Positions 40,124 through 62,439 of a DNA stretch of 64,000 bases are shown here, piece by piece; position 1 is the first letter of the stretch; each line of letters begins with the position of its first letter. The stretch lies in the IMG/VR virus record IMGVR_UViG_3300032820_000001, positions 32,001 to 96,000 of that record, one strand, 5' to 3'. A model generated the notes under the pieces. That model was not told the origin of the DNA. It ran no database searches and worked only from the letters and a program-made list of their open reading frames with translations. The position numbers and the translations under genes are program-made. Source of the stretch: a virus.

Positions 40124-43100
40124 TAGTTTCCGTCCCCGCCTGCGGTGTTGCTATCTGCTTTACTATAGAAGCTGCTGGCATGCCAAACTCCGCCTTCGTT
40201 GAAATAGTATTTATCTGATTGGACAAACACGCCAACGGGAGAGGAGCCAACCTTACTTAAGTAAATAGCACGTCCAGCGTAAGATGCCGCATTTTCATCT
40301 AATCCGATTAAAACAGCGCGATCTGAATTTTGTGTTCCGTCAAGAGTTAGTATATTCTGAATGTCAGGATGCGAAGAGGCTTGCGGTTCTTGCGGTGTAG
40401 TGTCAGCGTCCGTATAAAAGTGGGAGGGGTGCCAAATGCCGCCCTCATTAAAGTAAAATTTACTGGGTATTCTAAACGGCGTGACGGGGTTCGAAGCAAT
40501 TGACGACAAATATAAAGTCTTCCCAGAATATAAAACTGAGTTTGTGGCATATTCTTCTATCAGAGCCCTGTTGGGCCCGTCGCCGTCATCGGCCAATGTG
40601 AAAATACCAGACCCAATGGCAGCGATTGCAACAGTCGTAGTTCCACCACCGCCGGGGCCAAGATTAGAAAGTTGTTCATTTAAAGAATTTATTTGAAGCT
40701 GAATATCCTGCTGAGATCCCTGAATTAAGTCCGTGAGGCCATTGACATCTGCCGCCTCAACATATGAGGCAGTTAATCGGGAAAATGTTGGGGCGCCATC
40801 GGGGGTGTTGAATCTAAAGCCATTGGTTTCACCATCGATGGTTATTTTATGTGTTCCCCCGAAAATGATAGAGCCCGTAGAAACATAAATATCTCGCACC
40901 TGCTTGTCTATTGTTCCAATATCATAAAGGTTGCCAGATGCTGGAGCGATATGTCCATGAACCTCGATACCAGATGCGGTAAGAGACGAAACTGTCATTG
41001 CCTTGGTGGATGTGTTTCCTTTGTCGAGAATTGTATCGAGAGTATCTGCTTCCTCATAATAACTCGCAGTGAGGGCGTTTGCCACCGATCCTACAATTTC
41101 AGAGGCAGGGATGTTTGTCAAGTTGGAGGCATCCCCAATATAGGCAGAGGCAGACATTGAACCAGTATATGTTAAAACATTACTTGGGCCGGTAACAGAA
41201 AGAGTCCCCACTGCAGTTGAACCAGAGACAAAATGCAAAGAAGATCGGCGCACATAAATGGCATTCCATGGCTTCGCCAAGGCCCCCAGATCATGACTAA
41301 ATCGAGAATACGGCAAGATATTACCACTAGAATTTATTGTCCCCTCAAAATTGTGAGAGTCCAAAATCCCCGATCCAAAATTAGTTGTTCGAGTCACACT
41401 CAAGTTGCCCGTAATTGCGGCGGCGCCTACGTGATGTCCATCCCAAGATCCAGTGACACCAACCAAGCCAATGCCACTCCCAATAAAAGAGGAGGCCGAG
41501 AGCGTGGAAGAAACACTAACGTCGCCCATGAAATTAACGGTATCCCTGAATATAGAAGTTCCTCCTGAGCCAGTTTGAAGAAAAGAACCTGTAAACCTAT
41601 GAGTGTCGCTGAGGACATTGCCGAACGACGTGGAGCCAGAATATGTTAAGACACTACTATCGTCGACAGAAATTGTTCCCACATCCGTGGTACCGGATAT
41701 AAAGTGAAGAGAGCGATGGCCGACGTAGAGGGTATTCCACGGTTTTGCTGGGGAGCCTAAGTTGTGACTGAATCTCGCATTGGGGACAAGGTTCCCACTG
41801 ATATCTAGGCTTCCCGAAAAAATATGAGAGTCGGTATCGCTTGATCCAAAAGTTGTTGAATCCGACACAACTAGCGAGCCCGTAATTGCTGCATCACCTG
41901 TGTGTTGTCCATCCCAGTCTCCAGTGACGCCAGTGATGCCGGTGCCATCGCCAAAGAAAGCGGAGGCAGAGACGTGGCCAGAGGCGGTGAGGTTTGTTAC
42001 CTCAAGTGTTCCTGTAATTGCTGCATCGCCTGTGTGTTGACCATCCCAATCTCCGGTGACACCGGTTAAGCCAGCTCCATCGCCGAAAAAGGAAGAGCCG
42101 CTTATAATAGAGCCAGTTATATTTTGTGCGTGTACCAAAGTCCCGGACACGTTACCAGTTACATCACCCAGAACGCTGCCAGTGAGATCTCCAGTTACGT
42201 TCCCGGCTAAGTCGCCAGTTACGTTTCCTGCAACATCACCCAGAACGCTTCCGGTTAAGTTGCCAGTAACGTCACCAGTAACATCACCAGTAAGATTGCC
42301 AAGAACGCTGCCAGTTAAATCCCCAGTTACGTTTCCTGCAACATCACCCAGAACGCTTCCGGTTAAGTTGCCAGTGACATCTCCAGTTAAATTTCCAGCA
42401 ACGTTACCCAGAACACTTCCAGTTAGATTTCCAGTTACATTGCCAGTTACATTGCCAAGGATGCTGCCCGTCAAATTGCCAGTGACATCGCCAGTGACAT
42501 CACCAGTTACATTGCCAAGGACACTGCCAGTTAAATCTCCGGTCACGTTCCCGGTAAGGTCGCCAAGAACGCTTCCAGTTAAGTCACCAGTTACATTCCC
42601 AACAACATCGCCAGCAACGTCACCAATCACAGGCCCCAATAAAGAGCCAGTAAAGGATGTTGCCTCCACTGTTGATCCTGATATTGCTTGCGTCACAAAC
42701 ATAGAACCAGTTATGTGAGCATCACCAGTTAAATTTCCATCCCAAGAGCCACCAACGCCGCTTAGGTTACTACCATCGCCAAAAAAGGCAGATGCAGAGA
42801 TAGAAAGAGAGGAAGATAAATTTCCCTGAATTTCTATATCATCTTTGAAAATAGAAGTTGCGCCGGAGCCGGTCTGGAGGATAGATCCTGTAAATTGGTG
42901 GGTGTTGGTTAGAAGAGAGCCGAACTTTGTGGAACCCGTAAGATTTATATCTCCAGAAGAATTGATTGTTATCTCATCACTGGTGGAAGTTAGTGTTACG
43001 TTGGTTCCCTCCACTAAAGTTTTCATATTAAATTGGATTCCAGTTTTATTCCTGAAGACTCCCTCGCCAGTGCCAACATTGGCCATTGTGTTATCCACAC

Positions 43101-44268
43101 CATCGGGAGTTATAATGTTTGCGTTCTCGCATGCCGTAACGGAATCCAGATCAAACTCACTAACAGTCCCCTCAACCTCGGAAAGCTTGAAGATTCCTTC
43201 CCTGGCTCGGATGCAGCTGGCCACCACTTCAAACTTCTCGTCTATTTTCCCGAAAAGTAACTTGGGTTGTCCCACAGTAATAATTTCATAAAGAATATTC
43301 CCATAAAGGACGAAATCTCCCTCTCTAACAAAAAGATTTTGGTCTTCGGTGAGGCGCCGCTTGTGAAACTTAACGTCGATAGCGGATTTTCTGTCAATTC
43401 CAAAACTGGTGGTGGTGGTATCGCTGCCTTTCCACTCGATAGCTGCGAATACGCGTATGGGCGGCAAAAAAGTCTTATTTATAGCTTCGCCGTATAATTC
43501 ATGAAAATCAGAATTTGGAATGGACACCGGAAAGTATACAACCTGTTGGCCGACAACCCTTTCGAGTACCTCGTCGTTGACTTGTTTAACTAAATTTGAT
43601 TCTTTTCTCCCCGTAAAAAGGGGAGGAGGTGGTGTGCCCGGTCTTTCGTACACTTCGCCACAGGGTTGCTCGCCGGAGCCTCCGGTGCTGGTGGTGTCTC
43701 CCGTTAAAACTCGTATTTCTTGGATGGGATCGCATGCCGGTGCTGTTAAGCGCGGATCATCATCTCCGTCGTCTGCATAAGATTCCGAGGGGAAAGTTCC
43801 GTCCCTTGCGCGGACGCATTTTGCAGAAATTTCAATCTTTGAATCGGGTTGACCGAACAACAGCTTTGGCTGGGCCAGCTGCACAATCTCATACTTCTGT
43901 TCACCATACTGAATGAAGTCTCCCTCTCTTACAAAGAGGTTTTGGTCTTCGGTAAGGCGGCGCTTGTGAAAATGAATTGTCACTGAGGACTTCTTATCTA
44001 TTCCGAAGCCAGTGGTAGCGGTTTCTTCGCCTTCCCACTCGGCCAAGACTTCCACATGAACGGGTGGCAAGTAAGTTTTGTTAATTGCTTCACCATAAAG
44101 TGGGTGGAAATCTGAGTGTTTTAAACTAATGGGATAGTAGAGTATCGAAGTTCCGATTACTCTTTCGATTACCTCGTCAGTAACCTGCTTTACAATGTCT
44201 TTTTCTTTTTGCCCCGTAAACAAAGGAGGTGGAGGGGCTTCAGGTTGCTTCCACTGATTATCAGACAT
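40123..44268 (-). CDS. tandem-duplicated neck (head-closure, gp14-like) domains fused to a repetitive fibre
   Basis: two roughly 155-aa copies sharing PPPPLFTG, LYGEAINKT, FHKRRLTEDQNLFVREGDF, then GxVTG repeats. Confidence 0.7.
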   Translation of the reverse strand: MSDNQWKQPEAPPPPLFTGQKEKDIVKQVTDEVIERVIGTSILYYPISLKHSDFHPLYGEAINKTYLPPVHVEVLAEWEGEETATTGFGIDKKSSVTIHFHKRRLTEDQNLFVREGDFIQYGEQKYEIVQLAQPKLLFGQPDSKIEISAKCVRARDGTFPSESYADDGDDDPRLTAPACDPIQEIRVLTGDTTSTGGSGEQPCGEVYERPGTPPPPLFTGRKESNLVKQVNDEVLERVVGQQVVYFPVSIPNSDFHELYGEAINKTFLPPIRVFAAIEWKGSDTTTTSFGIDRKSAIDVKFHKRRLTEDQNLFVREGDFVLYGNILYEIITVGQPKLLFGKIDEKFEVVASCIRAREGIFKLSEVEGTVSEFDLDSVTACENANIITPDGVDNTMANVGTGEGVFRNKTGIQFNMKTLVEGTNVTLTSTSDEITINSSGDINLTGSTKFGSLLTNTHQFTGSILQTGSGATSIFKDDIEIQGNLSSSLSISASAFFGDGSNLSGVGGSWDGNLTGDAHITGSMFVTQAISGSTVEATSFTGSLLGPVIGDVAGDVVGNVTGDLTGSVLGDLTGNVTGDLTGSVLGNVTGDVTGDVTGNLTGSILGNVTGNVTGNLTGSVLGNVAGNLTGDVTGNLTGSVLGDVAGNVTGDLTGSVLGNLTGDVTGDVTGNLTGSVLGDVAGNVTGDLAGNVTGDLTGSVLGDVTGNVSGTLVHAQNITGSIISGSSFFGDGAGLTGVTGDWDGQHTGDAAITGTLEVTNLTASGHVSASAFFGDGTGITGVTGDWDGQHTGDAAITGSLVVSDSTTFGSSDTDSHIFSGSLDISGNLVPNARFSHNLGSPAKPWNTLYVGHRSLHFISGTTDVGTISVDDSSVLTYSGSTSFGNVLSDTHRFTGSFLQTGSGGTSIFRDTVNFMGDVSVSSTLSASSFIGSGIGLVGVTGSWDGHHVGAAAITGNLSVTRTTNFGSGILDSHNFEGTINSSGNILPYSRFSHDLGALAKPWNAIYVRRSSLHFVSGSTAVGTLSVTGPSNVLTYTGSMSASAYIGDASNLTNIPASEIVGSVANALTASYYEEADTLDTILDKGNTSTKAMTVSSLTASGIEVHGHIAPASGNLYDIGTIDKQVRDIYVSTGSIIFGGTHKITIDGETNGFRFNTPDGAPTFSRLTASYVEAADVNGLTDLIQGSQQDIQLQINSLNEQLSNLGPGGGGTTTVAIAAIGSGIFTLADDGDGPNRALIEEYATNSVLYSGKTLYLSSIASNPVTPFRIPSKFYFNEGGIWHPSHFYTDADTTPQEPQASSHPDIQNILTLDGTQNSDRAVLIGLDENAASYAGRAIYLSKVGSSPVGVFVQSDKYYFNEGGVWHASSFYSKADSNTAGGDGN
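42140..42650 (-). repeat. G-[ND]-[VL]-T-G tandem repeat region with an exact 53-bp direct repeat
   Basis: 42215-42267 is identical to 42323-42375. Confidence 0.9.
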
Positions 44269-44279
44269 CTATGATCCCC

Positions 44280-45548
44280 CTATCCCACAAAGATAGTCAG
44301 AGGGATCTTTTGTTGAATTCTGTTTGCGTTTTCGATGAGGTCAGCATCGCCAGACATTAGCTGCCCATACGTCATTTCGTCTAAGATGGTCTTCAGTTCA
44401 TCTCGAAGAGCAGTTTGTTCTTCTTTTGCCTGCGACGCCAACTCAGAACCGTTCAGCGTAACCGAATCTCCTGGAATTGGGATTGTGGCAAATTTCCCGC
44501 GAATGTGGCCAAGGGTCTCCTTGCTCAGTGCTAGACAAAATCTCCTGATCCACTGCTTTCCAATCGCATTGATATTTTCGTAAGGAACGTTGTCCAGTGG
44601 AAGGGTATTCATGTTATTTATACCGTCAATACCAATGTCGGCGCCGGAGGAATTAACCCAGTTATCGCCAGGAATAGTAAACTCAAACCACATCTTGTCT
44701 ATATTGTATGCGGAGGGGCTGGGAAAGACACGAAGTTTATTATCTCGCAACTCATAAGAGCATTGAGAGGTTCTGGTATATAGGGCATCCTCATAGGCCA
44801 TAGCTTGGAGTTTGTTTTCCCAAACGGGAACCACCTGGAAGGTGCTGTCGTCGGCATATTGCCCATAAGACGTTAAATTACCAATTACATTTAACCCTCC
44901 CTGATACCCGAAGAATCGCCACATGACGCGGGGGGTTTTGTAAAACACCTTTTTAATTAAGATCTTTTTATCTCCTACCAAGCCACTAAAGAGAGATCCA
45001 GTCTTGAGGGATTCCGCCTCGATGATAGATTGTAAGTTGTAATCTTGAACTTGAGATTCTATGTCAAAAGATGCAGAATAGATCGGGGTGCTTCCCCCTA
45101 CATTTGCTTCCTGCGAAATACCATCAGCAACACGACGGGCATAGGCGTAATCGAACAGTGGGTATTTTAAGCCAACGTGTCCGCCTTCTAGGGACGCGCT
45201 CAGGTCAGTGCCGGGTTTCATCTCACCTTTGTGATCAAACGTCCCTGTGGAGGCGCCCAGGACGTCAGAGAGTATGTTCTTCGACTGGTGTATGTTAATA
45301 AGATACGAGTATTCGAGACACGACTCTTCGTAGGCTGCGTATACGCTCTCTTCTTTAATTTCAATATCAAGAACGTCGCCGCCCAATTTGCGATATGTAT
45401 AGGTCACTTGGTCGACGGCGCCGGAGATGAAGTCATCGCTAGTATAGACGCCGGTTGCAAGTGAAGAAGTCACAAGCGAACGAGATCCTGTAGGGGGAAG
45501 AACTGAAACGCTGGTATTGCTTTTTGGGGTGAGAATCGGAGCTGCCAT
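44280..45548 (-). CDS. neck / head-tail adaptor protein (gp13-like)
   Basis: RKLGGDVLDIE, WIRRFCLALSKETLG.IRGKF.TIPIPG..VTLNG; follows MCP. Confidence 0.75.
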   Translation of the reverse strand: MAAPILTPKSNTSVSVLPPTGSRSLVTSSLATGVYTSDDFISGAVDQVTYTYRKLGGDVLDIEIKEESVYAAYEESCLEYSYLINIHQSKNILSDVLGASTGTFDHKGEMKPGTDLSASLEGGHVGLKYPLFDYAYARRVADGISQEANVGGSTPIYSASFDIESQVQDYNLQSIIEAESLKTGSLFSGLVGDKKILIKKVFYKTPRVMWRFFGYQGGLNVIGNLTSYGQYADDSTFQVVPVWENKLQAMAYEDALYTRTSQCSYELRDNKLRVFPSPSAYNIDKMWFEFTIPGDNWVNSSGADIGIDGINNMNTLPLDNVPYENINAIGKQWIRRFCLALSKETLGHIRGKFATIPIPGDSVTLNGSELASQAKEEQTALRDELKTILDEMTYGQLMSGDADLIENANRIQQKIPLTIFVG

Positions 45549-45581
45549 TCAAAGTACCTCGTGAGATTATAATTCACTTAA

Positions 45582-45589
45582 TAAGTAGT
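45582..45589 (-). promoter_or_regulatory. late-promoter-like ACTACTTA upstream of neck gene
   Basis: intergenic, just downstream of the MCP terminator. Confidence 0.55.
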
Positions 45590-45617
45590 TTATTTATTGA
45601 CTAAATGCAGAACAAAT

Positions 45618-45641
45618 AAAAAACCCGCCACAAGGACGGGT
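45618..45641 (-). terminator. intrinsic terminator after major capsid gene
   Basis: ACCCGTCC-TTGT-GGCGGGT followed by TTTTT. Confidence 0.75.
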
Positions 45642-45668
45642 CTTTCATATATTATGTATTGGTTTTAA

Positions 45669-47363: not shown

Positions 47364-47388
47364 TTTTAGAATCTCCTTTGTAGTTAGA

Positions 47389-48441: not shown

Positions 48442-48505
48442 TTGGCTACTCCCATTCTTGTGATTCAAAATCTTTGATATAAAGTCTATAGGGACTTCTA
48501 ACTAA

Positions 48506-48539
48506 TATAAATAGTGCTCACATCGTGTAAACCCCCTTT
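48506..48539 (-). promoter_or_regulatory. bipartite late-promoter-like motif upstream of scaffold-capsid operon
   Basis: AAAAGGGGTTT-N12-CACTATTTATA. Confidence 0.6.
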
Positions 48540-48618
48540 TTTGCAAAAAAACCTGATTTTTAGAGAGATAGCCATGGGTTTTCATGGGGAGTTACTATTT
48601 CTTTGTCTCCTCAAAAGC

Positions 48619-48645
48619 AAAAGCACCCTCCGAAGAGGGTGCTTT
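48619..48645 (-). terminator. intrinsic terminator after the giant fibre gene
   Basis: AAAGCACCCTC-TTCG-GAGGGTGCTTTT perfect stem. Confidence 0.85.
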
Positions 48646-48690
48646 GAGTAATTTAAAATGTCCGGTTAGAGACCGAAAGGGTGTTGTCTA

Positions 48691-54600: not shown

Positions 54601-57600
54601 AGATATTATTGGTTCGTTATAGTAAGTGTCAAAGAAAAATGTCCAGCGCAATGCGGGGCCGTCGAAGTATCCATCGCCGCCGGCGGTAAGCTGAACTGCT
54701 GTTTGTTCGCCCGGATCGAGATGAAAGTCATCAACTGGATCAAGAACGTTATCGGCATCGGTATCGGGGCTCATCAAATTGATGGTAATCACTTGAAGAG
54801 TTTCATTTCCGTCTGCGTCTACTACTTTAATTGTAAATGTATCGGCACCGGTGAATGCGCCTGCGGTTGCAGGAGTATAAATCCACTCTCCGTAGCGGAT
54901 GTCCGAAGAGCTTGGGTCCTGAGCTGTTATTACAGCTGTACCGTGTGAGCCCTGTGAAGAGATGCTGAAGGGGTTTGCTGCATCCATAAGATTGGCATCC
55001 ATGGCACGTATTTCAGAACTGTATACACCTTGTCCTGAATTATATTCAAAGACTCCGGCGGATACCCACTGTCCTGTGGGATCCATAAATGTGGTGGGAA
55101 CGTCAGATAATTCTTCGATGATTGCATGACCACCGTCGGTTTCAGCTATAAATTCATCAGACGGGACATAAAATACGTTCTGATCTCCGGCTCCGTCCGT
55201 AACAGTATATTGGGCTCGTAAAATTTTGCCCACCAAAGACGCAGCTATGGTAATGGGATCTTCGGGGCCCACGGAAATGGGGTCGTTAACATCGATGGTG
55301 GAGGTTGTCGGTGAACCAATATCAGTCCACGGTGTGGTTGGGTTTCCAAAGCCTGTGCCAGAAGTATTATCGGCAGGATCATTAGATTGCCACACCACGT
55401 CGATAACGGTGATTCCGGAGTTGTCCTCGATGGCGGCGGCAAATGTATTAACCGTCTGATCCACCATTGGTGGCGACATCATCTCTAAGTCGACTGCAAA
55501 TACCGTAGCATCTGGGTTGTCGTCATAAACGATTATCCCGTCAACGCCGCCGAAAACATCACCAACGCCTGCGCTGGATATGGTTCTTTTGATTACTAGA
55601 TTTCCCGTACCAGAATCAATCTCAACTGAGTATGTATCGGTAAGATATTCTTGAGGTCCTTGCGGGTTGGAATTCAGGCCCAACCACAGTGGGTTTCCGT
55701 AGTTATCGAAAAACGTCAATGTTTGGCCGCCGTCGTTAAAACTGTCCCCCATATTAAGTATGTGCGTATCTCCTTCAGAAATTGGAAGAGTACCCTGAAG
55801 GCTGGGGTTGCCGGTGGCCAATTCGCCAAGGCCATAGTTCACTGCCATATTGCCATTGATAATGACTTCGAAAGTACCTTCGGGGTCTCCGTAAGGTGTG
55901 CCGCCGTATTGATCTACCGAAAGAGAGTATACATAGGTAAAATCGGGCACAACTATGCTCCTAATTTCAGAATGTGCTCCACTAAGGCCGCTACTATCAA
56001 CCGTATATCTGATTATAACAGACAGCTGATCGTCAGCGGCCATGGCTGCAACAGTTGCGCCAGGAAGGGTATTTGTGGTTTGACCTCCGATGGTGGTGCC
56101 GTTGGCTAGCCACTCTATTGAAGTAATGGTAATGGCCTCAGACGCAATTGTAGTAGCGTCTGCAACGAGGTCATCGCTTGCACCAAAAAGAATAACTGCT
56201 GGAAGAAGTGCTCCAGATGTAACGCTAGTTTGTACATCCGGATCATTAACCGCATCGGTGCCGTCGAGATCATAATCGCCCGCTGGTTCAAGCCAGTCGG
56301 GGGTACCGTCGTTGTCTGCATCGGGCATCACTGCGTTGGCCCATGAACCGTTAGAATATGTCAAAATGGCTGTGCCATTGACGGAAAGAGTTGAGCCATC
56401 CCAGACAATCTGAATATCGTAAGGGCCCGTGGTGTAATCGGGTACAATGGAAAACACAATGGTGTCAGTGTCGGGGTTTTTGAAGTCAACGCTTGTAATG
56501 CCGCCGTCGCCAAAGGTGTCTAAGAGAGAAAGCGTTTGTGTGCCTTCCTGTGGTGTTATCACGCCATGGTCTGACATCAGAAGTGGGCTTTCCCAATTAT
56601 TTAACCCTCCGATAAGGCCGGTGGCGTTAAGAGCAATTTGCCATTCTGAAGTCCAATCGTCGCCGTTGAATACAATGGCGCCATAATCTGGTGATGCTTC
56701 AGATATCGCGTAGAACGGTGACATAAACCACTGTCCGCCTTCACAAAAGTAAAATTTCTCTGCCACTGAAAATGGGGCGAGAACGGGGTCACTGTCGTCA
56801 GCCGTAGTGAGATAAAAGACCTCTCCTTCGTGATCAGACATATCTGCTTTGAGTGCAGAGCCGTCTTTCAAGTGAGCTGGAACAGCGTCATAAAGTGGAA
56901 CAATAAATTTAGTTGATGTCATGTCTCCTGACATTTCAGCATTTTGACCTGCTGCAATAGAAAGAGTATCACTTCTCATACCGGCGGTTTTTGTAACGCC
57001 GTCGACTGCTTTATCGACAGCACCGAGCATAGCATCAAGCCTATTTTGGCGGCTTTGCAATTTCTGATCCAACATATCGTCGGCAGCATGCAAAGATGTG
57101 AGGCCAGTTAAACAATAGGTAGCCACGCCATAAGTAATTTCAAATGTAGAAGATGCACCAATAGATGCAGTTGCGTTAGAGATTTTGGCAGTTAAACCTG
57201 CTTCATGAGTATCTTCTGCGGTGGTATTATGGGCAATCAAAACTGCCTGCTGTGCAGCGATTGTATCGTCTGCAGGAGCTGCGCCACGGATTTCGGATTT
57301 CATGGTGTTTATTTTAGAAGTTAGGGTTCCACGCAAGTCTGGATCTGAGTCCATGGCTGTTTGGAGTGCCTCAAGTGTTTTCCAAGTGTCTTCAACGCCA
57401 GTGCCTTCTAGTCTCTGTGAGACTTGGTATGCCAAAGATCCTGATACGGTCTTGGCTCCTTGAATTCTTATAATGTCTGTATTGGAGTTTGAAAGTTGAG
57501 TGTCCAATTTCAAATCTGCGTCTTTCAGACTTGTAGCATTATCTGCATAATTTGTATCAGTTCGAGCTACATAATCGTGGCCTCGAAGTGAAGGGGTCGC

Positions 57601-57891
57601 GCCAGTGGCAGCGTCGGCTGCGGTTGCGATCCTAGTATTTTCTAAGTTGGTTTCGAGCGGACTGTGAGTCGCTGCAGAATCGACGGTTCGTTGTCTAATG
57701 GAACCGGATTTGCTTTCGAGTGTTGCAACAAGATCGTTGCCATCAACGCCCAAGACACCTATAGTGCCGGACATCGTAGATACAGCGTCAGCGGTGCCTA
57801 AGTTGGCGTCGCCGTCAGCTGTCATGGTGTGTTTCAGATCGTTGGCCAAGTCGCCAGATCCTGAAATGACTGCTATACCTTTTTTAGTCAT
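48691..57891 (-). CDS. giant fibre/adhesin-like virion protein (about 3,070 aa)
   Basis: N-terminal 400 aa paralogous to 58151-59809; DxDxDG Ca-binding repeats, cadherin-like and LamG-like segments. Confidence 0.75.
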   Translation of the reverse strand: MTKKGIAVISGSGDLANDLKHTMTADGDANLGTADAVSTMSGTIGVLGVDGNDLVATLESKSGSIRQRTVDSAATHSPLETNLENTRIATAADAATGATPSLRGHDYVARTDTNYADNATSLKDADLKLDTQLSNSNTDIIRIQGAKTVSGSLAYQVSQRLEGTGVEDTWKTLEALQTAMDSDPDLRGTLTSKINTMKSEIRGAAPADDTIAAQQAVLIAHNTTAEDTHEAGLTAKISNATASIGASSTFEITYGVATYCLTGLTSLHAADDMLDQKLQSRQNRLDAMLGAVDKAVDGVTKTAGMRSDTLSIAAGQNAEMSGDMTSTKFIVPLYDAVPAHLKDGSALKADMSDHEGEVFYLTTADDSDPVLAPFSVAEKFYFCEGGQWFMSPFYAISEASPDYGAIVFNGDDWTSEWQIALNATGLIGGLNNWESPLLMSDHGVITPQEGTQTLSLLDTFGDGGITSVDFKNPDTDTIVFSIVPDYTTGPYDIQIVWDGSTLSVNGTAILTYSNGSWANAVMPDADNDGTPDWLEPAGDYDLDGTDAVNDPDVQTSVTSGALLPAVILFGASDDLVADATTIASEAITITSIEWLANGTTIGGQTTNTLPGATVAAMAADDQLSVIIRYTVDSSGLSGAHSEIRSIVVPDFTYVYSLSVDQYGGTPYGDPEGTFEVIINGNMAVNYGLGELATGNPSLQGTLPISEGDTHILNMGDSFNDGGQTLTFFDNYGNPLWLGLNSNPQGPQEYLTDTYSVEIDSGTGNLVIKRTISSAGVGDVFGGVDGIIVYDDNPDATVFAVDLEMMSPPMVDQTVNTFAAAIEDNSGITVIDVVWQSNDPADNTSGTGFGNPTTPWTDIGSPTTSTIDVNDPISVGPEDPITIAASLVGKILRAQYTVTDGAGDQNVFYVPSDEFIAETDGGHAIIEELSDVPTTFMDPTGQWVSAGVFEYNSGQGVYSSEIRAMDANLMDAANPFSISSQGSHGTAVITAQDPSSSDIRYGEWIYTPATAGAFTGADTFTIKVVDADGNETLQVITINLMSPDTDADNVLDPVDDFHLDPGEQTAVQLTAGGDGYFDGPALRWTFFFDTYYNEPIISFIQDATTTVMIQGGFYMDENMAPQPGAPNGTTTSTPPISAGLTDISLDWADSWGDNGGQLFIHRDDQVPNPVDPTSYLADIGPGGFPDANVPTTFVLNYDGKDLVVDGGTPISVYPGATLVPGSGAPATYTLEGENMVNAVSTLENLRDNSFLAVTSPTWEETLTAAHYDVGADGNLTAAAQTIITDTETAIAQAFQESQDVAAICADLITGDNNPSSQIGTDQEDHYNAQLAAGQQAVVTLATISTKNDSLATYVSGDWDADGISVINDPIPGLPLGLSYPAIIPLTTDTIAAYSVNDNYDNDGAEISYVGDPLALHLSGSWTSPSMFAGAALHTSIMKTMALRPFTLSFILDIPENTFASNGYNRPKHIIGTKRNQAVLYQNGGFSVQTQMVKDDQDDDICRPLMEGGVQVGNYYTIGSFYNHTYNSLNLSHIPLPYGTDNTAAGPQSGFPIRAGEKTHVSLVRDGEEMRVYINGALHVWDSGDFIDLATADVPGAGAHAWTQMPKTFGDLMFAAYADEDGSWTQGDLGFYSGWSLSRIRINDIAEDAAQVAADNAAAVSETTTPQLTLLNLPGFDAISNVTRTKNTIISTTTPIYSYETPYLFAMGADQIRFDLDSLLEIDAESQVDGTTLSVELRSTEDALTTLASATTTWQSAGWLQPTLDVAAPVTLSDFEGAESLQVHFVVTHANSGISTTTLAYWEEFAGTDANGTTGAESAGNDDFRIGIVGSTDALTYVYQSAGEYRPYPDAPVPNSSFTITNPNDNDAVREQPTGAITWTTAATGATWLNNTDNLISGYLFAVYDDEITFDHTDVELKDVNGNVLTNLKTRLIISKSNWQTELPGAGTTDPLSDGDTVVLSDIGDSTMRVTYQVHDESTGQLLHHGGDIISSFTQPKTNVNHLWMAADEAEWAANADPDGDGVLWQADALPNDPDGSIDDDGDGIAADGTPPDPDDGNPALPAAPTMTLAPVWTGAGPELQSAIVNTETGLGFQKYHHLEPWGLLIAAPGDQIEFVGSEVTVDEPNRVGSILTVELTMATITVASGTSTWDAINGKFKEGIIQIPDIGENDAGNGAIQNVAYSDATLNPTGGGGGYLKIRAYVTNQYGQQSNVAYFGDELSPFAFIFVSPAANVPFHNGLALADQEYGVTGGDAIAAAGSSIEMEFATNSHIRVFNNGLGITRDIIPADSTFIRPGSTNDQLTGEESILSVVGDFMKFSGDLGQAQSFKTPDGTSLPNLEARFMLRNHDTTTGWNYYSADGTDALDPWNLNNMAGPDDTIELTQEMFNSNVSAGSSWGLLRVYAILYDTVNNVAQSSHNYLQRSPWDTDYNGLSEPIVKVCIHQTEAEYQAQADPDSDGVSWSYDAFPNDPNEDSDADNDGYGDNLEMSVGTAENPNPHLDSEDPGVHCEVTLIPAESITISGSAQTIEYNTYTTGYSSGLIATTVGNKLVIDPTSMTTTGVFTAASWRAAFELYRLELDSNGVAIEVSYNTSATQGLTPLSENAVIDTAGMPDGRYWVRLTHLENIHGDPGAITADVAQHNQYGNSSNALVDTQVLLVQPECADAFDWLKGDLTIHESVDAFRVEIGNTGVERSAILDPLNTSWSAPDPSGNIHSLEVTVFAVREDVLLYKPASDASSFVFRYDNNEEATGLSTSLYFVDGYDSSGQHMYMDDNNSQDLDSYNPLDPAETVTTENSLYPVNTNPETPVDNKFTIGHVVYTAPNTGAPLRLDYFTGGDENVTSLVVVNTEEEYLCLAPGSDCVDTDLDGVTDGADADPNNPFIPNEWLDMQIDLFGANQAYVDQLTIIVDDDVLYGAITGGPGGTGTGQTIDYSAGGYTTGQMNTAANGTNVTGIASGVRLFANVPPTVIKYCKSTGWDDFTAEISVSTAVAGELGNSLRALTITNDTSNTFQADTLNGNINTVALQLVKDGDDYSVEATFTPFGASPTTETILEWDAASGEFSDPGN

Positions 57892-57914
57892 ATTATATCC
57901 CTCCAAGGATTAAA
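57892..57914 (-). promoter_or_regulatory. conserved fibre-gene 5' leader (copy 1)
   Basis: TTTAATCCTTGGAGGGATATAAT directly before ATG; identical at 61024-61046. Confidence 0.8.
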
Positions 57915-57972
57915 AGTTAATTAACTTATCATGATCATATTTTGGACACAGAAGTGCCAAGAGTATCGTTGG

Positions 57973-57980
57973 TAAGTAGT
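57973..57980 (-). promoter_or_regulatory. late-promoter-like ACTACTTA
   Basis: intergenic copy upstream of the giant fibre gene. Confidence 0.55.
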
Positions 57981-58065
57981 TGATTTTCATTAGGAAACCT
58001 AAAGTATTTTCATATCCTTTGTTACCCGAAAATCAAGGCGGATCTAGATTTAGATCTCAAAAGAA

Positions 58066-58093
58066 AAAGCACCCCGCCTTGTGGGGGTGCTTT
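58066..58093 (-). terminator. intrinsic terminator after the 552-aa fibre gene
   Basis: AAAGCACCCC/GGGGTGCTTT stem followed by a T-run on the minus strand. Confidence 0.8.
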
Positions 58094-58150
58094 GTAATTG
58101 TTTGTTGTATCGTTCATCTTTATCTCAAAGAGATTAAGAGTTACAATTGT

Positions 58151-59809
58151 TTAGGAGTCGGTGAACTGCACCGTGACCACGTTAAAGGAATCATCTATAA
58201 ACTGAAATGTATAAACGTGTCCAGGTCCCTGATCCAACCCGATCTCCGCCAACTTCACCAATGTGGTGGTTCCTGCGGCGAGGGGATATGGTGCACCAGT
58301 GGGAGGTGGGCTGCCAAACCAAACATCACCGTAGCCGGCGTTCGTTGCAACCGCCACGCAATTGGCGCTACAGGTAATATCAATGCTGCCACCGTTGTCA
58401 ACAATTGAAGCTGCAAAGGCAATATCAGCTTCTATCGTTACATCAACAGTAGCGGTGGCCGTTTGGTTTTGGCTGTCTGTTGCTGTAAAAGTCACTGTTT
58501 GGTTTGCACCAACAGCCATAGTGCTGGCATTTGCGGGATCCGCAGTAACAGCAAGTGCGCCGTCTTCGATATCAGTTGCAGTTGCATTAGACGCGAAGTC
58601 ATAATTAGTATTCTCTGTTAGAGTGGTACTTACTCCTGCAGTGTTAATCGTTGGCAAGTTGTCATAAAAGAACGGTGATGCAAACCACTGAGAATCTTCG
58701 CGGAAATAAAATTTATTATTCGCTGGGAACTCTGTGGTGCTGTTGGCACTAAATTCAGCGGCAGAACATTCCAAATAGAACACTTCTCCCTCTTCTGGGC
58801 TGGCTTCAATATCGGCAATTGTCGATACTTTCGGCGTGAAGAATTTCTCACAGGAAGTGTCGCCCGACATTTCAGCGTTCTTGTTGGCTGCTACAGTGAG
58901 AGAGTCACTTCGCATGCCAGCTGCTTTAGAAGAGCCGTCGACAGTTTTAGCGGCTGCGCCAAGCATGGCGTCAAGTCTATTCTGTCGACTTTGCAATTTC
59001 TTATCCAACTCATCGTCGGCTGCATGCAAGCTCGCTTTACCGTTCAAATAATTTGTAGCTTCTGCATTACCATAATCAACAGCAAATGCACTACTTGCCC
59101 CAATGGAACTGGTAGCGTTGCTGAGTTTGGTAGTCAAACCTGCTTCATGAGTATTTTCTGCGGTGTTATTGTGGGCACTCAAAGTTATCTGTTGTGCAGC
59201 AATTGTATCATTAGGTGCCTGAGCGGTACCTCTAATTTCTGATTTCATTGCGGTGATCTTAGAAGTTAAGGTGCCTCGCAGATCTGTATCTGCATCCATG
59301 GCAGTCTTAAGTGCTTCAAGAGTTTTCCAAGTTTCTTCAACGCCAGTGCCTTCTAGTCTCTGTGAGACTTGATATGCAAGCGAACCAGAAGTGGTATTAC
59401 TACCATTGATACGATTGATATCGGCCTTTGAAGCGTCAAGTTGAGTGTCCAATTTCAAATCGGCATCAAGTAAGCTTGATGCACTATTTGCATAGTTGGT
59501 GTCAGCTCGTGCTACATAGTCGTGGCCATTATTGGCTCCGTCTACAGCACTCGCTGCGGTTGAAACTCGCACGTTTTCCAGGTTTGTTCCGAGTGGACTG
59601 TGAGTCGTTGCGGAATCGGTGGTTCGAGTTCGAACCGAGCCTGAAAGGGTTTCGAGTCTAGTTACGATGTCTCCAGCAGATCCTAATACAGTAACTGTAC
59701 CAGAAAGAGTGGAAATGGCATCAGCATGACCTAATTCGGCCACACCATCGTCCATAAGTTTGTGTTTCACGGCTGAAGAGCCTGAAACTACTGCTATACC
59801 TTTAGTCAT
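58151..59809 (-). CDS. fibre paralog with C-terminal Ig-like domain
   Basis: MTKGIAV start, ADxxLD coiled-coil motifs, aromatic module, then ATATDIEDG...TVTFTATDSQNQTATATVDVTI. Confidence 0.75.
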   Translation of the reverse strand: MTKGIAVVSGSSAVKHKLMDDGVAELGHADAISTLSGTVTVLGSAGDIVTRLETLSGSVRTRTTDSATTHSPLGTNLENVRVSTAASAVDGANNGHDYVARADTNYANSASSLLDADLKLDTQLDASKADINRINGSNTTSGSLAYQVSQRLEGTGVEETWKTLEALKTAMDADTDLRGTLTSKITAMKSEIRGTAQAPNDTIAAQQITLSAHNNTAENTHEAGLTTKLSNATSSIGASSAFAVDYGNAEATNYLNGKASLHAADDELDKKLQSRQNRLDAMLGAAAKTVDGSSKAAGMRSDSLTVAANKNAEMSGDTSCEKFFTPKVSTIADIEASPEEGEVFYLECSAAEFSANSTTEFPANNKFYFREDSQWFASPFFYDNLPTINTAGVSTTLTENTNYDFASNATATDIEDGALAVTADPANASTMAVGANQTVTFTATDSQNQTATATVDVTIEADIAFAASIVDNGGSIDITCSANCVAVATNAGYGDVWFGSPPPTGAPYPLAAGTTTLVKLAEIGLDQGPGHVYTFQFIDDSFNVVTVQFTDS

Positions 59810-59835
59810 AGTTTATTTTCTCCTTCTAATAGTTA

Positions 59836-61023
59836 TTATGATTCTGGTTCGAATCTGAACATGGATGGATGCCATTCGCCATCTTCACACATGTAAAGTT
59901 TATCGTCTTGTTTAAATGAAGTTGCACCATCACCGTCGGTGATAAATACAAACTTGCCATTGTGGGCTTGTCGCGCTGCGTTTGTCGCTGGATCGAGTCC
60001 TGCGTTAACCGCTGCAGTCGAGCTCATGTTGGGGAGCGAAAAGCGACCACTATTTGCGGTGAATCTCACAGTTCCCAAATCTGCAGTGCTACTAACCGTA
60101 AGCTTTCCAGCGAGGGTCATTGCACCACCAGTGGTGCCGTTACCTTCGAGGGCCGTAAGAGACAAATCTCTTTGGTAAATAGCTTCGTCCAAGTCCTTAT
60201 CGGCTTGAACCATGGTTCCAGCTGCAGTGATGTAGTTTTCAGTAGCGTAAGCATCAGGAGTATTTGTGCCATCGGCAGCGAGGCCGAGGTTAGTAAACGT
60301 GGTGCTCAATTCGCCAACTAACAAACCGTTTTCGGTGTTATAGCGAGAAATTTCACTTTCAAGAGCGCCAGACAAATAGCCAAGAGTGGCTGTGGCACCT
60401 TCGAGGTTGGCGATAAATGTCGCCTTTGAAGACGAAATGTGATTCTCGATTGCAGTCACCACGGTTGTGGCGGGTGCGTCGTCAAGACTATCGCCTGCGT
60501 TTCTCAGGGAGTCTTGAATGCCTTCAATGGTATCAAGTGCTCCTGCGGGGTTGGTGAAGTTAGCACCGGTTGCGCCGGCTCCAAAAACAACTTCTGCAAT
60601 TTGTCGCTTGATTGAGTGTGCGCCAGTGTTGGCATCCATTACATCAATTCTGTCTTGTTCGGTTTTTGCCAAAGCATCAATTGCTTTATCTGCGGCAGAG
60701 AATTCTGCTGCAGCGCCGTCGCCGCTTAAGGCAACATAAGTTCCAGCACCGGTGGTGCCCATAAGAACTTCTGCTGCATCTAATTTTTGCTGAATATCAG
60801 CAATTGTGTTTGAGTCTAGGGTTGCTTCTGTCCCAAGGTCGGTGTCGACTTGGGTGAGAGTTGCGGCTACGTCAGTAACAGCTGCGCCATCTTTGGCGAT
60901 TGAAACAACGCCATCGAGGTTGACCTGCTTTGAAGAGCCTGCAAGACCTAAGTTAAATTCGCCCTCGTTGTCGAGCTTGTGTACCTCTGCGGTACCACTG
61001 CGAACTACTATACCTTTTTTCAT
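59836..61023 (-). CDS. fibre paralog ending at the aromatic module
   Basis: MKKGIVV start, ADxxLD motifs, C-terminal KLYMCEDGEWHPSMF. Confidence 0.75.
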   Translation of the reverse strand: MKKGIVVRSGTAEVHKLDNEGEFNLGLAGSSKQVNLDGVVSIAKDGAAVTDVAATLTQVDTDLGTEATLDSNTIADIQQKLDAAEVLMGTTGAGTYVALSGDGAAAEFSAADKAIDALAKTEQDRIDVMDANTGAHSIKRQIAEVVFGAGATGANFTNPAGALDTIEGIQDSLRNAGDSLDDAPATTVVTAIENHISSSKATFIANLEGATATLGYLSGALESEISRYNTENGLLVGELSTTFTNLGLAADGTNTPDAYATENYITAAGTMVQADKDLDEAIYQRDLSLTALEGNGTTGGAMTLAGKLTVSSTADLGTVRFTANSGRFSLPNMSSTAAVNAGLDPATNAARQAHNGKFVFITDGDGATSFKQDDKLYMCEDGEWHPSMFRFEPES

Positions 61024-61046
61024 ATTATATCCCTCCAAGGATTAAA
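61024..61046 (-). promoter_or_regulatory. conserved fibre-gene 5' leader (copy 2)
   Basis: identical 23 nt to 57892-57914. Confidence 0.8.
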
Positions 61047-61065
61047 GTGTTTTTATTAATTTCGA

Positions 61066-62331
61066 TTATGCATCATCCTTCAATAAGTGAGATGAGTGCC
61101 AGATTCCATTTTCACAAAAGTAAAGTACTGAACCTTCGGTAAATGGGGTTGCGCTCATGTCGGTAGCTGCGGCGTTGTTGAGGCAGAATACCTTTCCATT
61201 ATTGGAAGTATCACCATCTCGCATAGTCGCGTCATCAATTGCTTCTTGTCCAGTCATAACTGGGAAGTTAAAAGTTGAAGTGCTCATCATTTTCAGGTGT
61301 CCGCTAATGTCGGAAGTTCCGCTAATAGTGAGAGTGTTACATGCAAGCAAGTCAGAACTTAAAGCTGCTATGTCAGTTTCCAAAGTCTTGGTTGCGTCGT
61401 CAAACTTCTTATCTCTTGCGATCATTGAAGTTGCGCCAGTTGTATAATTACCTTCGGTCATGGCCGACATGGTTCCGTCAGCGGCCGTTCCAGCGCATGA
61501 GGCGCCTTGGGTGCTGTCGATATCGTCACGCAAAGCTTTTTGCGATCCACCCACAGGGCGAGCCGCGCTTGTCAGATCTGTCGTTCCTGCACGTCGGTTT
61601 TTCTCGGCTTCGATTTCTGTTTCGAGAGTGTTCAAGTTTTCGTCTGCAGTGCCGACATCACCGTCGATTTCTTCGAGTGCGGATGCAACGTCAGAAAGAA
61701 CGGTTCCGGAAAAGTCAGTGTCGTCAGCGATGCTGGCCTGAATTTCTGGAAGAGTGTCGAAAGCGTCACCGGGACTAGCAACAACATCAGCAATTGCTTT
61801 TTTGATGGAGCCAGCGTTGGATGCGTGTTCCAAAATGCCTAGTTCGGCTCTTTGTCTTACGATTTCAGCAACAAGTGCTTCGTCCACTGCTTTAAGAGTG
61901 GTTGCGTCTTTGACGCCTTGAATGTTTGCACTGGTTGTGTTCAGTGTGGGGTTAACCCCAACGATGCCAGAAGTGGCATTGTTTGTGGCTGCGCCGGTGC
62001 CCGCTGTCAAGCCGGCTGCAACGATCAAATCGTTAACCTTGCCGTCAAGAAGGTCTCTACGACCATCAGCATCTGATTCTTCTTTATCAAGAGAACCTTT
62101 TATACCATTGATGACTTTAGCTAAGTCATTTGAATTGGCGCCGTCGGCTGCCATGATGGTGCCATAAGTGCCGTCCGCTTTGACTTTAATGTCAAGGTTT
62201 TCGACTTGTACGGTACCATTAAGTGTTACGGCTGATGTGCCGCCGCCTCCGACTTTAGCGTCACCATTATCCACAAGCTTGTGAACGGTGGCGCCAGTGG
62301 AAGCATTTAATACTGCTATACCTTTTGCCAT
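61066..62331 (-). CDS. fibre paralog ending at the aromatic module
   Basis: MAKGIAV start, coiled coil, C-terminal VLYFCENGIWHSSHL. Confidence 0.75.
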   Translation of the reverse strand: MAKGIAVLNASTGATVHKLVDNGDAKVGGGGTSAVTLNGTVQVENLDIKVKADGTYGTIMAADGANSNDLAKVINGIKGSLDKEESDADGRRDLLDGKVNDLIVAAGLTAGTGAATNNATSGIVGVNPTLNTTSANIQGVKDATTLKAVDEALVAEIVRQRAELGILEHASNAGSIKKAIADVVASPGDAFDTLPEIQASIADDTDFSGTVLSDVASALEEIDGDVGTADENLNTLETEIEAEKNRRAGTTDLTSAARPVGGSQKALRDDIDSTQGASCAGTAADGTMSAMTEGNYTTGATSMIARDKKFDDATKTLETDIAALSSDLLACNTLTISGTSDISGHLKMMSTSTFNFPVMTGQEAIDDATMRDGDTSNNGKVFCLNNAAATDMSATPFTEGSVLYFCENGIWHSSHLLKDDA

Positions 62332-62355
62332 ATTTATATCCCTCCAAGGATTAAA
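62332..62355 (-). promoter_or_regulatory. conserved fibre-gene 5' leader (copy 3)
   Basis: same 22-nt core TTTAATCCTTGGAGGGATATAA. Confidence 0.8.
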
Positions 62356-62439
62356 ATTGTTAATTAAATGTCCGCAGCAGACCTGGCTGCTACAAACACT
62401 AAAGACGATTAGGCACAGTGGTGCCATAGTCTTCGGGGG

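What the first reader, a model, noticed from the sequence alone, without database searches (positions are those of the whole stretch)
40160..61205. One roughly 40-aa aromatic module shared by five fibre proteins (six copies)
Seen: consensus G[KER]xx[YF][LI]-x(8-16)-F-x(4)-[KV][FYL]Y[FM][CNR]E[GDN][GS]xW-xx-S-x-[FL]. It occurs twice at the neck-fibre C-terminus (about 40160-40520), in the giant protein (about 56715-56830) and in the 552-aa protein (about 58670-58795). It ends the 59836 and 61066 proteins. It always follows the shaft; in two proteins extra domains are appended after it. Known: the T4 fibritin foldon is a small trimerisation domain in this position. Inference: an undescribed foldon-like or docking module acting as a universal joint.
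Basis: partly seen in the sequence, partly recalled or inferred. Interest (0 to 1): 0.78.

Follow-up and report, generated by a model that had tools for sequence, protein, structure and literature searches.

The report
Foldon-like knob domain on phage neck fibres
An unnamed protein domain of about 70 residues, whose conserved half resembles the T4 fibritin "foldon", occurs six times in the neck protein and four sister fibres of an uncultured marine T4-like phage; it most likely holds three fibre chains together, which is untested.

Summary
All six copies lie at the stated places. A profile built only from other genomes finds exactly these six in the 191-kb phage genome (E 1e-30 to 1e-6).

AlphaFold2 with 102 sequences gives pLDDT 85, above 95 in the core.

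No match came from the local Pfam, PHROGs, PDB sequences, Foldseek or cultured phages. At least 178 clusters exist in metagenomes, in two contexts:
- On the gp14-like neck protein, usually as two modules. They are tandem here; elsewhere one is fused and one is a separate 80-aa gene.
- In fibres of the form: conserved ~50-aa N-terminal anchor, optional stalk, module, optional cargo.

Four of the five window proteins are paralogues of the second type, so the module has two independent contexts, not five.

Profile-profile comparison links the module weakly but reproducibly to the foldon and to a 40-aa mini-module, probably Pfam 38.1 PTL_trimer. The best fold matches, also weak, are collagen XV/XVIII trimerisation domains.

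Best reading: a foldon-superfamily trimerisation knob (confidence 0.5). A docking role is possible. The oligomeric state is untested. The scan noted this module before in another genome (e1-5810461).

The parts
40123..44268 (-). 1381-aa neck protein: two gp14-like head-closure domains, a long fibre, then module a and module b
   Evidence: ORF. The gp14-like domains at aa 5-159 and 207-360 each match the single-domain neck protein of L057 at 53-57% identity. The gene lies between the gp13-like and gp15-like genes.
40402..40629 (-). Module copy a (aa 1214-1289 of the neck protein)
   Evidence: HMM E 4e-29. Groups with copy a of 21 orthologues (SH-aLRT 84).
40153..40380 (-). Module copy b (aa 1297-1372 of the neck protein; the protein ends 9 residues later)
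   Evidence: HMM E 4.5e-30. AlphaFold2 model pLDDT 85, core above 95. Copy-b clade SH-aLRT 96.
48691..57891 (-). Giant fibre protein (3066 aa from the ATG at 57891): anchor, stalk, module, then ~2670 aa of cargo
   Evidence: ORF. True start and SD leader. Paralogy to the other three fibres.
56698..56925 (-). Module in the giant protein
   Evidence: HMM E 1e-29; E 1.4e-9 with the profile built from other genomes.
58151..59809 (-). 552-aa fibre: anchor, stalk, module, then ~170 aa with weak Ig-like matches
   Evidence: ORF. Big_9 and HYR matches below cut-off at aa 395-459. 61% identical to the giant protein over the shared part.
58655..58882 (-). Module in the 552-aa protein; its helix region is about 10 residues shorter
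   Evidence: HMM E 6e-21; gap visible in the alignments.
59836..61023 (-). 395-aa fibre (ATG at 61023): anchor, stalk, module at the C-terminus
59842..60069 (-). Module ending the 395-aa protein
   Evidence: HMM E 5.8e-30.
61066..62331 (-). 421-aa fibre (ATG at 62331, not the upstream ATG of the longest ORF): anchor, stalk, module at the C-terminus
61069..61296 (-). Module ending the 421-aa protein
   Evidence: HMM E 3e-29.
57736..57891 (-). N-terminal ~50-aa anchor (M-x-KKGIAV...G...lG) of the giant protein. The same anchor starts the other three fibres at 59809, 61023 and 62331.
   Evidence: Anchor HMM hits at aa 1-50 of all four window fibres and of some 90 of the ~105 single-module proteins of 300 aa or more elsewhere; alignment.
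44280..45548 (-). gp13-like neck protein (context)
   Evidence: phrog_211, head-tail adaptor Ad2. 52% identical to the 438-aa protein of L057.
39305..40123 (-). gp15-like tail terminator (context)
   Evidence: Weak T4-gp15_tss match. 44% identical to the L057 285-aa protein.

Best explanation
The module is an autonomous domain of 65-75 residues: strand, alpha-helix, short helix, strand, then a beta-hairpin. Its conserved C-terminal half, G-x3-Y-L ... F ... K-F-Y-F-x-E-x-G-x-W-x2-S-x-F, is a foldon-type hairpin.

I read it as an enlarged member of the foldon-like group of phage-fibre trimerisation motifs. In this reading it is a knob that brings three chains together in register after the anchor or stalk and keeps them together, so that anything from nothing to 3,300 residues of cargo can be carried beyond it.

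In this phage lineage it is the fixed part of a fibritin-like fibre system tied to the neck. The gp14-like neck protein usually carries two modules. Every fibre that starts with the conserved ~50-aa anchor carries one.

Shown: the domain, its predicted fold, its distribution and its two contexts. Inferred: the link to the foldon, the trimeric state and the role in registering the chains.
For: 1. It is a real conserved domain: six copies, an independent profile finds them, and 178 clusters at E<=1e-3 in 1.84 billion representatives.
2. The fold prediction is confident: pLDDT 85, core above 95.
3. The hairpin matches the foldon: Y to W is +7 and G is at +5. hhalign aligns module residues 48-74 to the whole foldon (score 21.7, P 2.8e-4). 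Column-shuffled foldon alignments score 8.0 +/- 2.4 with a maximum of 19; 0 of 200 reach the real score; the reversed alignment scores 7.1.
4. A ~40-aa mini-module lies just upstream of the pair in 21 orthologues. Five of these 21 carry a precomputed PF26696 hit ('PTL_trimer, phage tail like trimerisation region', a name from Pfam 38.1). One of them, P0025, has no other non-module sequence. The mini-module matches the module (P 2.4e-4; shuffles 8.7 +/- 1.8, maximum 14.5) and the foldon (P 8.7e-6, probability 83%).
5. The best fold matches of 48,161 chains are the collagen XVIII and XV trimerisation domains, aligned over their full length (57 of 57 and 53 of 53 residues; Z 4.1 and 3.6). N-terminal domains of trimeric phage tailspikes follow. 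The collagen domains also sit between a shaft and a cargo and start in-register assembly (PMC7852327).
6. The architecture of anchor, stalk, module and variable or Ig-like cargo mirrors fibritin. Fibritin has a conserved 50-aa N-terminal neck-binding domain, a shaft, one or two foldons and variable C-terminal domains (PMC3797505).
7. Strong conservation across very different cargos argues for an assembly role rather than host binding.
Against: - No oligomeric state was measured or modelled; only single chains could be folded.
- Pfam Fibritin_C finds nothing in the genome at E<=10.
- HMM-to-sequence searches with the foldon or mini-module profiles find no module.
- hhalign probabilities are only 41-44%.
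- Fold matches are weak (Z about 4, no Foldseek hit at E<=0.001). A two-residue-turn hairpin with an aromatic cross-strand pair could be convergent.
- In many relatives a single-domain gp14-like protein (gp14 is a hexamer in T4, PMC12929629) carries one module with no fibre and is followed by a module-only gene. Pure fibre trimerisation does not explain this.
- A crude heptad scan found little canonical coiled coil before the module.
Confidence: 0.5

Rival explanations
1. Docking module. The modules on the neck protein and on the fibres bind one another, or bind the fibres' N-terminal anchors. The neck then offers sockets on which exchangeable fibres are hung. This is comparable to T4 gp13 domain III binding fibritin, or to gp10-like adaptor domains in branched tailspike systems.
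For: - The second neck module can be a separate ~80-aa gene directly after a neck protein that ends in a module. It has its own ATG, and its frame relative to the upstream gene varies, so the two must associate non-covalently.
- Two separate lineages keep two neck modules, one in tandem form and one in split form.
- In four of five related contigs a neck-type module co-occurs with modules on fibre proteins.
- Anchor and module almost always occur together, and minimal proteins of 132-135 aa consist of only those two parts.
Against: - No interaction data exist.
- Neck and fibre modules of this genome do not group together or show concerted change.
- Co-occurrence can arise from duplication within a genome.
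- This reading does not exclude trimerisation; it may be a second function of the same knob.
Confidence: 0.25
2. Adhesin or lectin domain: an aromatic-rich binding site for a host or environmental glycan, displayed at fibre ends.
For: The conserved aromatic residues (Y, F, Y, W, F), the C-terminal and tandem placement on the neck fibre, and the Ig-like or adhesin-like neighbours.
Against: - It is the most conserved part of proteins whose other parts vary freely. That is the opposite of receptor-binding domains.
- It often lies next to the N-terminal anchor with the cargo beyond it.
- It is fused directly to a neck ring protein.
- No lectin fold appears among the matches.
Confidence: 0.08
3. 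A passive folding cap or spacer: a stable small domain that ends or punctuates fibres, with no oligomerisation or binding role.
For: It is a small, stable-looking domain with a confident monomer model, and no function has been shown.
Against: Nine positions are invariant or 90% or more conserved across 102 divergent sequences. The module is strictly tied to two partners. Module-only genes are maintained.
Confidence: 0.1

Closest known systems
T4 fibritin (Wac) C-terminal foldon (PDB 1RFO; Pfam PF07921 Fibritin_C)
   Same: - Beta-hairpin with the same spacing: foldon Y-V-R-K-D-G-E-W against module Y-F-N-E-G-G-x-W, followed by S-x-F.
- It sits after the shaft of a fibre associated with the neck.
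- It can occur twice, as in JS98-type fibritins (PMC3797505).
- Profile-profile alignment is in register.
   Different: - 65-75 aa against 27 aa, with an extra strand, an alpha-helix and a long loop.
- No match to the Pfam model.
- It also occurs next to the N-terminal anchor, in the middle of giant proteins, on the gp14-like neck protein and as a gene of its own.
- The anchor is not detectably related to the fibritin N-terminal domain (P 0.12).
Pfam 38.1 PF26696 PTL_trimer ('phage tail like trimerisation region')
   Same: A ~40-aa unit (strand, short helix, G-T-i-v-Y-n, F-x-F-x-Q-x-G-x-W) lies directly before the module pair in 21 orthologues. The five of them that carry the longer IP[QR]L variant have a precomputed PF26696 hit. 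The unit aligns to the module with one 12-residue insertion in the module.
   Different: The family is not in the local library, so the assignment of the mini-module to it is an inference. The module is nearly twice as long and carries no PF26696 label in fragments that hold modules only. In this window's neck protein the mini-module is precisely deleted.
Trimerisation domains of multiplexin collagens XV and XVIII (PDB 3N3F, 9BNB)
   Same: They are the best structural matches and are aligned over their whole length. They have a similar size (~55 aa) and lie between a trimeric shaft and a cargo domain. They start in-register trimer assembly (PMC7852327).
   Different: Z is only 4.1 and 3.6 with 10-11% identity, and there is no sequence signal. 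This is an analogy, not kinship.
Fibritin-type collar or whisker fibres of T4-like phages
   Same: The four window fibres and their relatives have a conserved ~50-aa N-terminus, a stalk, a small conserved knob and a variable C-terminal part that includes Ig-like domains (PMC3797505).
   Different: There are no PHROG or Pfam fibritin matches. The genes are separated from gp13 by the scaffold-position and capsid genes. There are four paralogues instead of one gene. Where they attach on the virion is unknown.

Membership tests
T4 fibritin foldon (Pfam PF07921 Fibritin_C) | Match to the family model at or above its cut-off | tested here: not met
   PF07921 finds nothing in the whole 191-kb genome at E<=10. 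The Pfam scan of the six copies at E<=10 lists no fibritin family.
T4 fibritin foldon (Pfam PF07921 Fibritin_C) | Hairpin motif: aromatic-x-R/x-x-D/N/G-G-x-W, with Y to W at +7 and G at +5 | tested here: met
   Y59...G64...W66 is conserved in 90% or more of 102 sequences. The foldon sequences from nine phages show the same spacing.
T4 fibritin foldon (Pfam PF07921 Fibritin_C) | Detectable profile-profile homology | tested here: inconclusive
   hhalign score 21.7, P 2.8e-4, probability 41%. 0 of 200 column shuffles reach the score (maximum 19.0).
T4 fibritin foldon (Pfam PF07921 Fibritin_C) | Minimal unit of about 27 residues without a helix | tested here: not met
   The model has a strand, a 12-residue helix, a short helix and three further strands over ~62 ordered residues.
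T4 fibritin foldon (Pfam PF07921 Fibritin_C) | Autonomous trimerisation | not testable with these tools
   Only single chains can be folded here. This needs multimer prediction or SEC-MALS.
Pfam 38.1 PF26696 PTL_trimer | Match to the family model | not testable with these tools
   The family is absent from the local Pfam copy. Fragments that hold only modules carry no precomputed Pfam label.
Pfam 38.1 PF26696 PTL_trimer | Similarity to the ~40-aa mini-module presumed to be this family | tested here: inconclusive
   hhalign score 22.6, P 2.4e-4, probability 44%. Shuffles score 8.7 +/- 1.8 with a maximum of 14.5.
Multiplexin collagen trimerisation domain | Shared fold | tested here: inconclusive
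   Top two of 48,161 chains: Z 4.1 (57 aligned, rmsd 3.6) and Z 3.6 (53 aligned, rmsd 3.1). Foldseek E about 2.
Multiplexin collagen trimerisation domain | Sequence relationship | tested here: not met
   A profile of 102 sequences finds no PDB chain at E<=10.
Fibritin-type collar fibre (for the carrier proteins) | Homology of the N-terminal ~50-aa domain to the fibritin neck-binding domain | tested here: inconclusive
   hhalign of the anchor against 11 Wac N-termini gives P 0.12 and probability 0.5%, although the alignment is in a plausible register.
Fibritin-type collar fibre (for the carrier proteins) | Segmented coiled-coil shaft | tested here: inconclusive
   A crude heptad scan flags only aa 241-278 of the 453-aa ORF and aa 281-308 of the giant protein.

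The most novel reading that the evidence does not exclude
The module is the socket of a plug-and-socket system on the phage neck. The gp14-like protein displays two modules, fused or as a separate subunit. These recruit, by module-module or anchor-module binding, an exchangeable set of fibres with very different cargos. The phage could then re-equip its collar simply by duplicating a small anchor-plus-module cassette.
Probability: 0.25. Interest if true: 0.75.

Novelty: new variant of a known kind. Interest (0 to 1): 0.55.

Why it matters
The T4 foldon is the standard trimerisation tag of structural biology and vaccine design, and its immunogenicity is a recognised problem (PMC13766278). A larger, independently folding relative with many natural variants would give alternative tags. 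It would also show how such motifs grow, from 27 aa to 40 aa to 70 aa.

For phage biology, the module together with its ~50-aa anchor defines a so far unannotated fibre system around the neck of an abundant, uncultured marine T4-like lineage. It gives annotators a handle for hundreds of 'hypothetical' structural proteins. These include giants of more than 3,000 aa and neck proteins that carry fibres.

Tried and rejected
- Local Pfam-A on the six copies (E<=10) and on the whole proteins: nothing relevant.
- PHROGs, also at E<=5: nothing for the module or the anchor.
- PDB sequence search with the 102-sequence profile: none.
- Foldseek against PDB and BFVD: no hit at E<=0.001.
- tblastn of the neck pair and of an anchor-plus-module protein against 50,697 phage records: none, apart from one chance-level row.
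- Profile search of Flavobacterium phage immuto, Microcystis phage Mel-JY01, Rhodothermus phage RM378, the 484-kb uncultured phage LR756508 and the T4-like RB18: none at E<=1. The same profile found the module in 5 of 5 metagenomic relatives.
- Single-sequence AlphaFold2 of the tandem pair failed (pLDDT 34).
- Stop-codon read-through or frameshift joining the 267-aa neck protein to the module-only ORF: rejected. The frame relation varies between loci, and a conserved ATG follows the stop by 3-10 codons.
- Simple fission or fusion orthology of the split and tandem pairs: rejected. The split copies group with each other, not with tandem a or b.
- Anchor against the fibritin N-terminus: not significant.
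- Foldon and mini-module HMMs against the genome: nothing.
- Heptad scan: uninformative.
- PF26696 and PF26708 are not in the local library.
- The paper on the collagen XV domain structure (PMC3048825) is not held.
Full report
**Setting.** The window is bases 32001-96000 of a complete 191,133-bp IMG/VR virus record with direct terminal repeats.
- All genes in the region of the finding are on the minus strand.
- In the direction of transcription the order is: four fibre genes; a 359-aa gene in the scaffold position; a gp23-type major capsid protein (Pfam Gp23, E 4e-70); a gp13-like neck protein; a 1381-aa neck protein; a gp15-like protein; the tail sheath; the tail tube; and a baseplate hub.
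- The capsid protein is at most 51% identical to anything in 50,697 phage records. The nearest are an uncultured 484-kb phage, Flavobacterium phage immuto, Microcystis phage Mel-JY01 and Rhodothermus phage RM378.
- This is therefore a distant, uncultured T4-like myovirus.

**The observation.** The six stretches align with invariant G, F, Y, E, W and S.
- BLAST with the neck pair finds the other four copies at E 1.7e-6 to 7e-3.
- An HMM of the six finds no seventh copy in the six-frame translation of the genome.
- An HMM made only from neck-type modules of other genomes recovers all six and nothing else (E 1e-30 to 1.2e-6).
- The giant, 552-aa, 400-aa and 453-aa proteins are paralogues over about 320 N-terminal residues plus the module. 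The first two are 61% identical. Four of the six copies therefore come from duplication of a whole gene.
- The listed ORFs of three of these proteins start too early. The real starts are ATGs at 57891, 61023 and 62331, each behind the same leader TTTTAATCCTTGGAGGGATATAA(A)T.

**Size and fold.**
- A 102-sequence alignment (A2) has nine positions that are invariant or conserved in 90% or more of sequences: G36, Y40, F52, K57, Y59, E62, G64, W66 and S69.
- AlphaFold2 with this alignment gives pLDDT 85 and pTM 0.71, with blocks of 95-98 for residues 11-70.
- The elements are: strand 11-14, helix 18-29, short helix 31-34, strand 38-43, bridges at 49 and 52, then a hairpin of strands 57-61 and 66-68.
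- Without an alignment the prediction fails.
The strand-helix half varies more and is about 10 residues shorter in the 552-aa protein.

**Distribution.**
- The six-copy profile finds 178 clusters (50% identity) at E<=1e-3 among 1.84 billion representatives.
- It finds 68 loci in IMG/VR and 42 proteins in the 5.8-billion-protein set, several of them from Tara Oceans.
- Where the protein atlas records taxa for look-alike clusters, they are viral.
- No cultured phage has the module.
- The module has only two contexts.

*Context 1: the neck protein.*
- Orthologues of the 1381-aa protein end in a tandem pair of modules.
- Copies a and b each form their own group across genomes (SH-aLRT 84 and 96).
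- In another group of contigs, for example L057, the order is: a gp13-like gene; a 280-aa gene with a head-closure match that has no counterpart among the ten window proteins I compared; a 267-aa protein; a separate 80-95-aa gene; then gp15-like and sheath genes.
- The 267-aa protein is a single gp14-like domain, 53-57% identical to each of the two such domains of the window protein. A ~30-residue linker and one module follow it.
- The separate 80-95-aa gene consists of little more than one module.
- The split copies group with each other, not with tandem a or b. The two-module state was therefore reached or homogenised separately in the two lineages.

*Context 2: fibres with an N-terminal anchor.*
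- Of about 105 single-module proteins of 300 aa or more, about 90 start with a conserved ~50-aa anchor: M-x-KKxKGIxV..(K/H)FKF..(D/E)G.S.lG...H...G. Most of the rest, and most shorter hits, look like fragments cut by contig ends.
- The four window fibres start with the same anchor.
- The distance from anchor to module runs from about 10 to more than 1,000 residues.
- The cargo after the module runs from 0 to about 3,300 residues.
- The smallest proteins (132-135 aa) are anchor plus module only.
- In four of five related contigs, neck-type modules occur together with one module per fibre gene; the fifth, 62% complete, shows only the neck pair.

**Comparison with known families.**
- Nothing matches in the local Pfam, PHROGs, PDB sequences or Foldseek libraries.
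- The full-library structural aligner puts the collagen XVIII and XV trimerisation domains first. They are aligned over their whole length (57 of 57 residues, Z 4.1; 53 of 53, Z 3.6).
- N-terminal domains of trimeric phage tailspikes and fibres follow at Z 2-3.4. These scores are weak and could reflect only a common small arrangement.
- The module hairpin has the spacing of the T4 foldon. I checked the foldon sequence against PDB 1RFO.
- hhalign aligns module residues 48-74 with the whole foldon in that register: score 21.7, P 2.8e-4, probability 41%.
- 200 column-shuffled foldon alignments score 8.0 +/- 2.4 with a maximum of 19.0; the reversed alignment scores 7.1.
- The Pfam Fibritin_C model itself finds nothing in the genome.

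**The bridging mini-module.**
- Twenty-one orthologues of the neck protein carry a ~40-aa mini-module directly before the module pair. An example is FTIPQLTNEELSSLQPKNGTMVYDTTQEKFLFCQGGEWLSL.
- The five of these orthologues that carry the longer IP[QR]L variant have a precomputed hit to PF26696. The protein atlas names this family 'PTL_trimer, phage tail like trimerisation region' (Pfam 38.1).
- One of the five (P0025, 234 aa) has no other sequence outside its two modules.
- That the mini-module is this family is my inference, because the family is not in the local library.
- The mini-module aligns to the module with one 12-residue insertion in the module (score 22.6, P 2.4e-4; shuffles 8.7 +/- 1.8, maximum 14.5). 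It aligns to the foldon at P 8.7e-6, probability 83%.
- The three units therefore form a consistent series of 27, 40 and 70 residues sharing the final hairpin.
- In the window's own neck protein the mini-module is precisely deleted. A coiled-coil-like segment and a glycine run precede module a.

**Interpretation.** The carrier fibres have the layout described for fibritin (PMC3797505):
- a conserved 50-aa N-terminal domain that binds the neck;
- a shaft;
- a small C-terminal unit that starts trimerisation and occurs twice in JS98-type fibritins;
- variable additions, including Ig-like domains in RB43.

In T4, twelve fibritin trimers bind domain III of the gp13 dodecamer, and gp14 is a hexamer (PMC12929629). 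The collagen XV/XVIII domains likewise sit between a shaft and a cargo and start in-register assembly (PMC7852327).

On this basis the most likely function is a foldon-superfamily trimerisation and registration knob (confidence 0.5).

Two facts do not follow from that alone. Single-domain neck proteins carry a module without a fibre. A module-only gene is kept beside them. Both suggest that modules also bind one another or bind the anchor, so a docking role (0.25) may be a second function rather than a true alternative. A host-binding role is unlikely (0.08), because the module is the constant part next to freely varying cargo.

**Limits.**
- No multimer could be modelled and no coordinates were available for surface analysis.
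- Homology of the anchor to the fibritin N-terminus was not shown (P 0.12).
- The coiled-coil test was crude.
- The similarity to the foldon rests on short profiles and may be convergent.

**Earlier notes of this scan.** The scan had already noted the same module in another genome, with a similar reading (e1-5810461).

Noticed in passing
L057:2419-3470 (also L042-L065): In a second group of uncultured T4-like contigs, the gp14-like neck protein has a single domain, carries one module after a ~30-aa linker, and is followed by a separate 80-95-aa gene that is essentially one module. The relative frame of the two genes varies between loci, and an ATG follows the stop by 3-10 codons, so they are two genes and not a read-through product.
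   Followed up: yes
window 40630-40830 (aa ~1150-1213 of the neck protein): Orthologues carry a ~40-aa foldon-like mini-module (probably Pfam PF26696 PTL_trimer) just before the module pair. In this phage it is cleanly deleted between '...FSRL' and 'TASYV...'. A coiled-coil-like segment and a glycine run then precede module a.
   Followed up: partly
window 57892-57915, 61024-61047, 62332-62355: Three of the four fibre genes share the leader TTTTAATCCTTGGAGGGATATAA(A)T directly before the ATG. The longest-ORF starts (TTG at 57906 and 61038, ATG at 62427) are artefacts of reading this leader as codons ('EGYN'). The true products are 3066, 395 and 421 aa.
   Followed up: yes
window 57736-57891, 59663-59809, 60889-61023, 62191-62331: A conserved ~50-aa N-terminal anchor is shared by the four fibres and by about 90 database clusters. 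Proteins of only 132-135 aa consisting of anchor plus module exist in relatives (L066:2712-3116, P0052). Where the anchor binds on the virion is unknown, and it shows no significant similarity to the fibritin N-terminus.
   Followed up: partly
window 58790-58882: The module of the 552-aa protein lacks about 10 residues of the helix region and scores lower (71 bits against about 100). This is so although the protein is 61% identical to the giant protein overall. The strand-helix half of the module seems dispensable or fast-evolving.
   Followed up: no
L075 (Serratia phage X20 fibritin), L079 (Cronobacter phage CR9 tail fibre): Foldon-type motifs (EAPxDGxxYxRxxGxW) occur two or three times in tandem in fibritins and tail fibres of cultured phages. 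They also occur in Cellulophaga, crAss-like and Pseudomonas phage structural proteins. The foldon motif is far more widespread than T4-like whiskers.
   Followed up: no
P0059, P0099, P0089 (database relatives): The cargo after the module in several relatives starts with DTDGDGV-type repeats, resembling calcium-binding thrombospondin type-3 repeats. Others carry He_PIG or Big_9 Ig-like domains (P0042, P0038).
   Followed up: no
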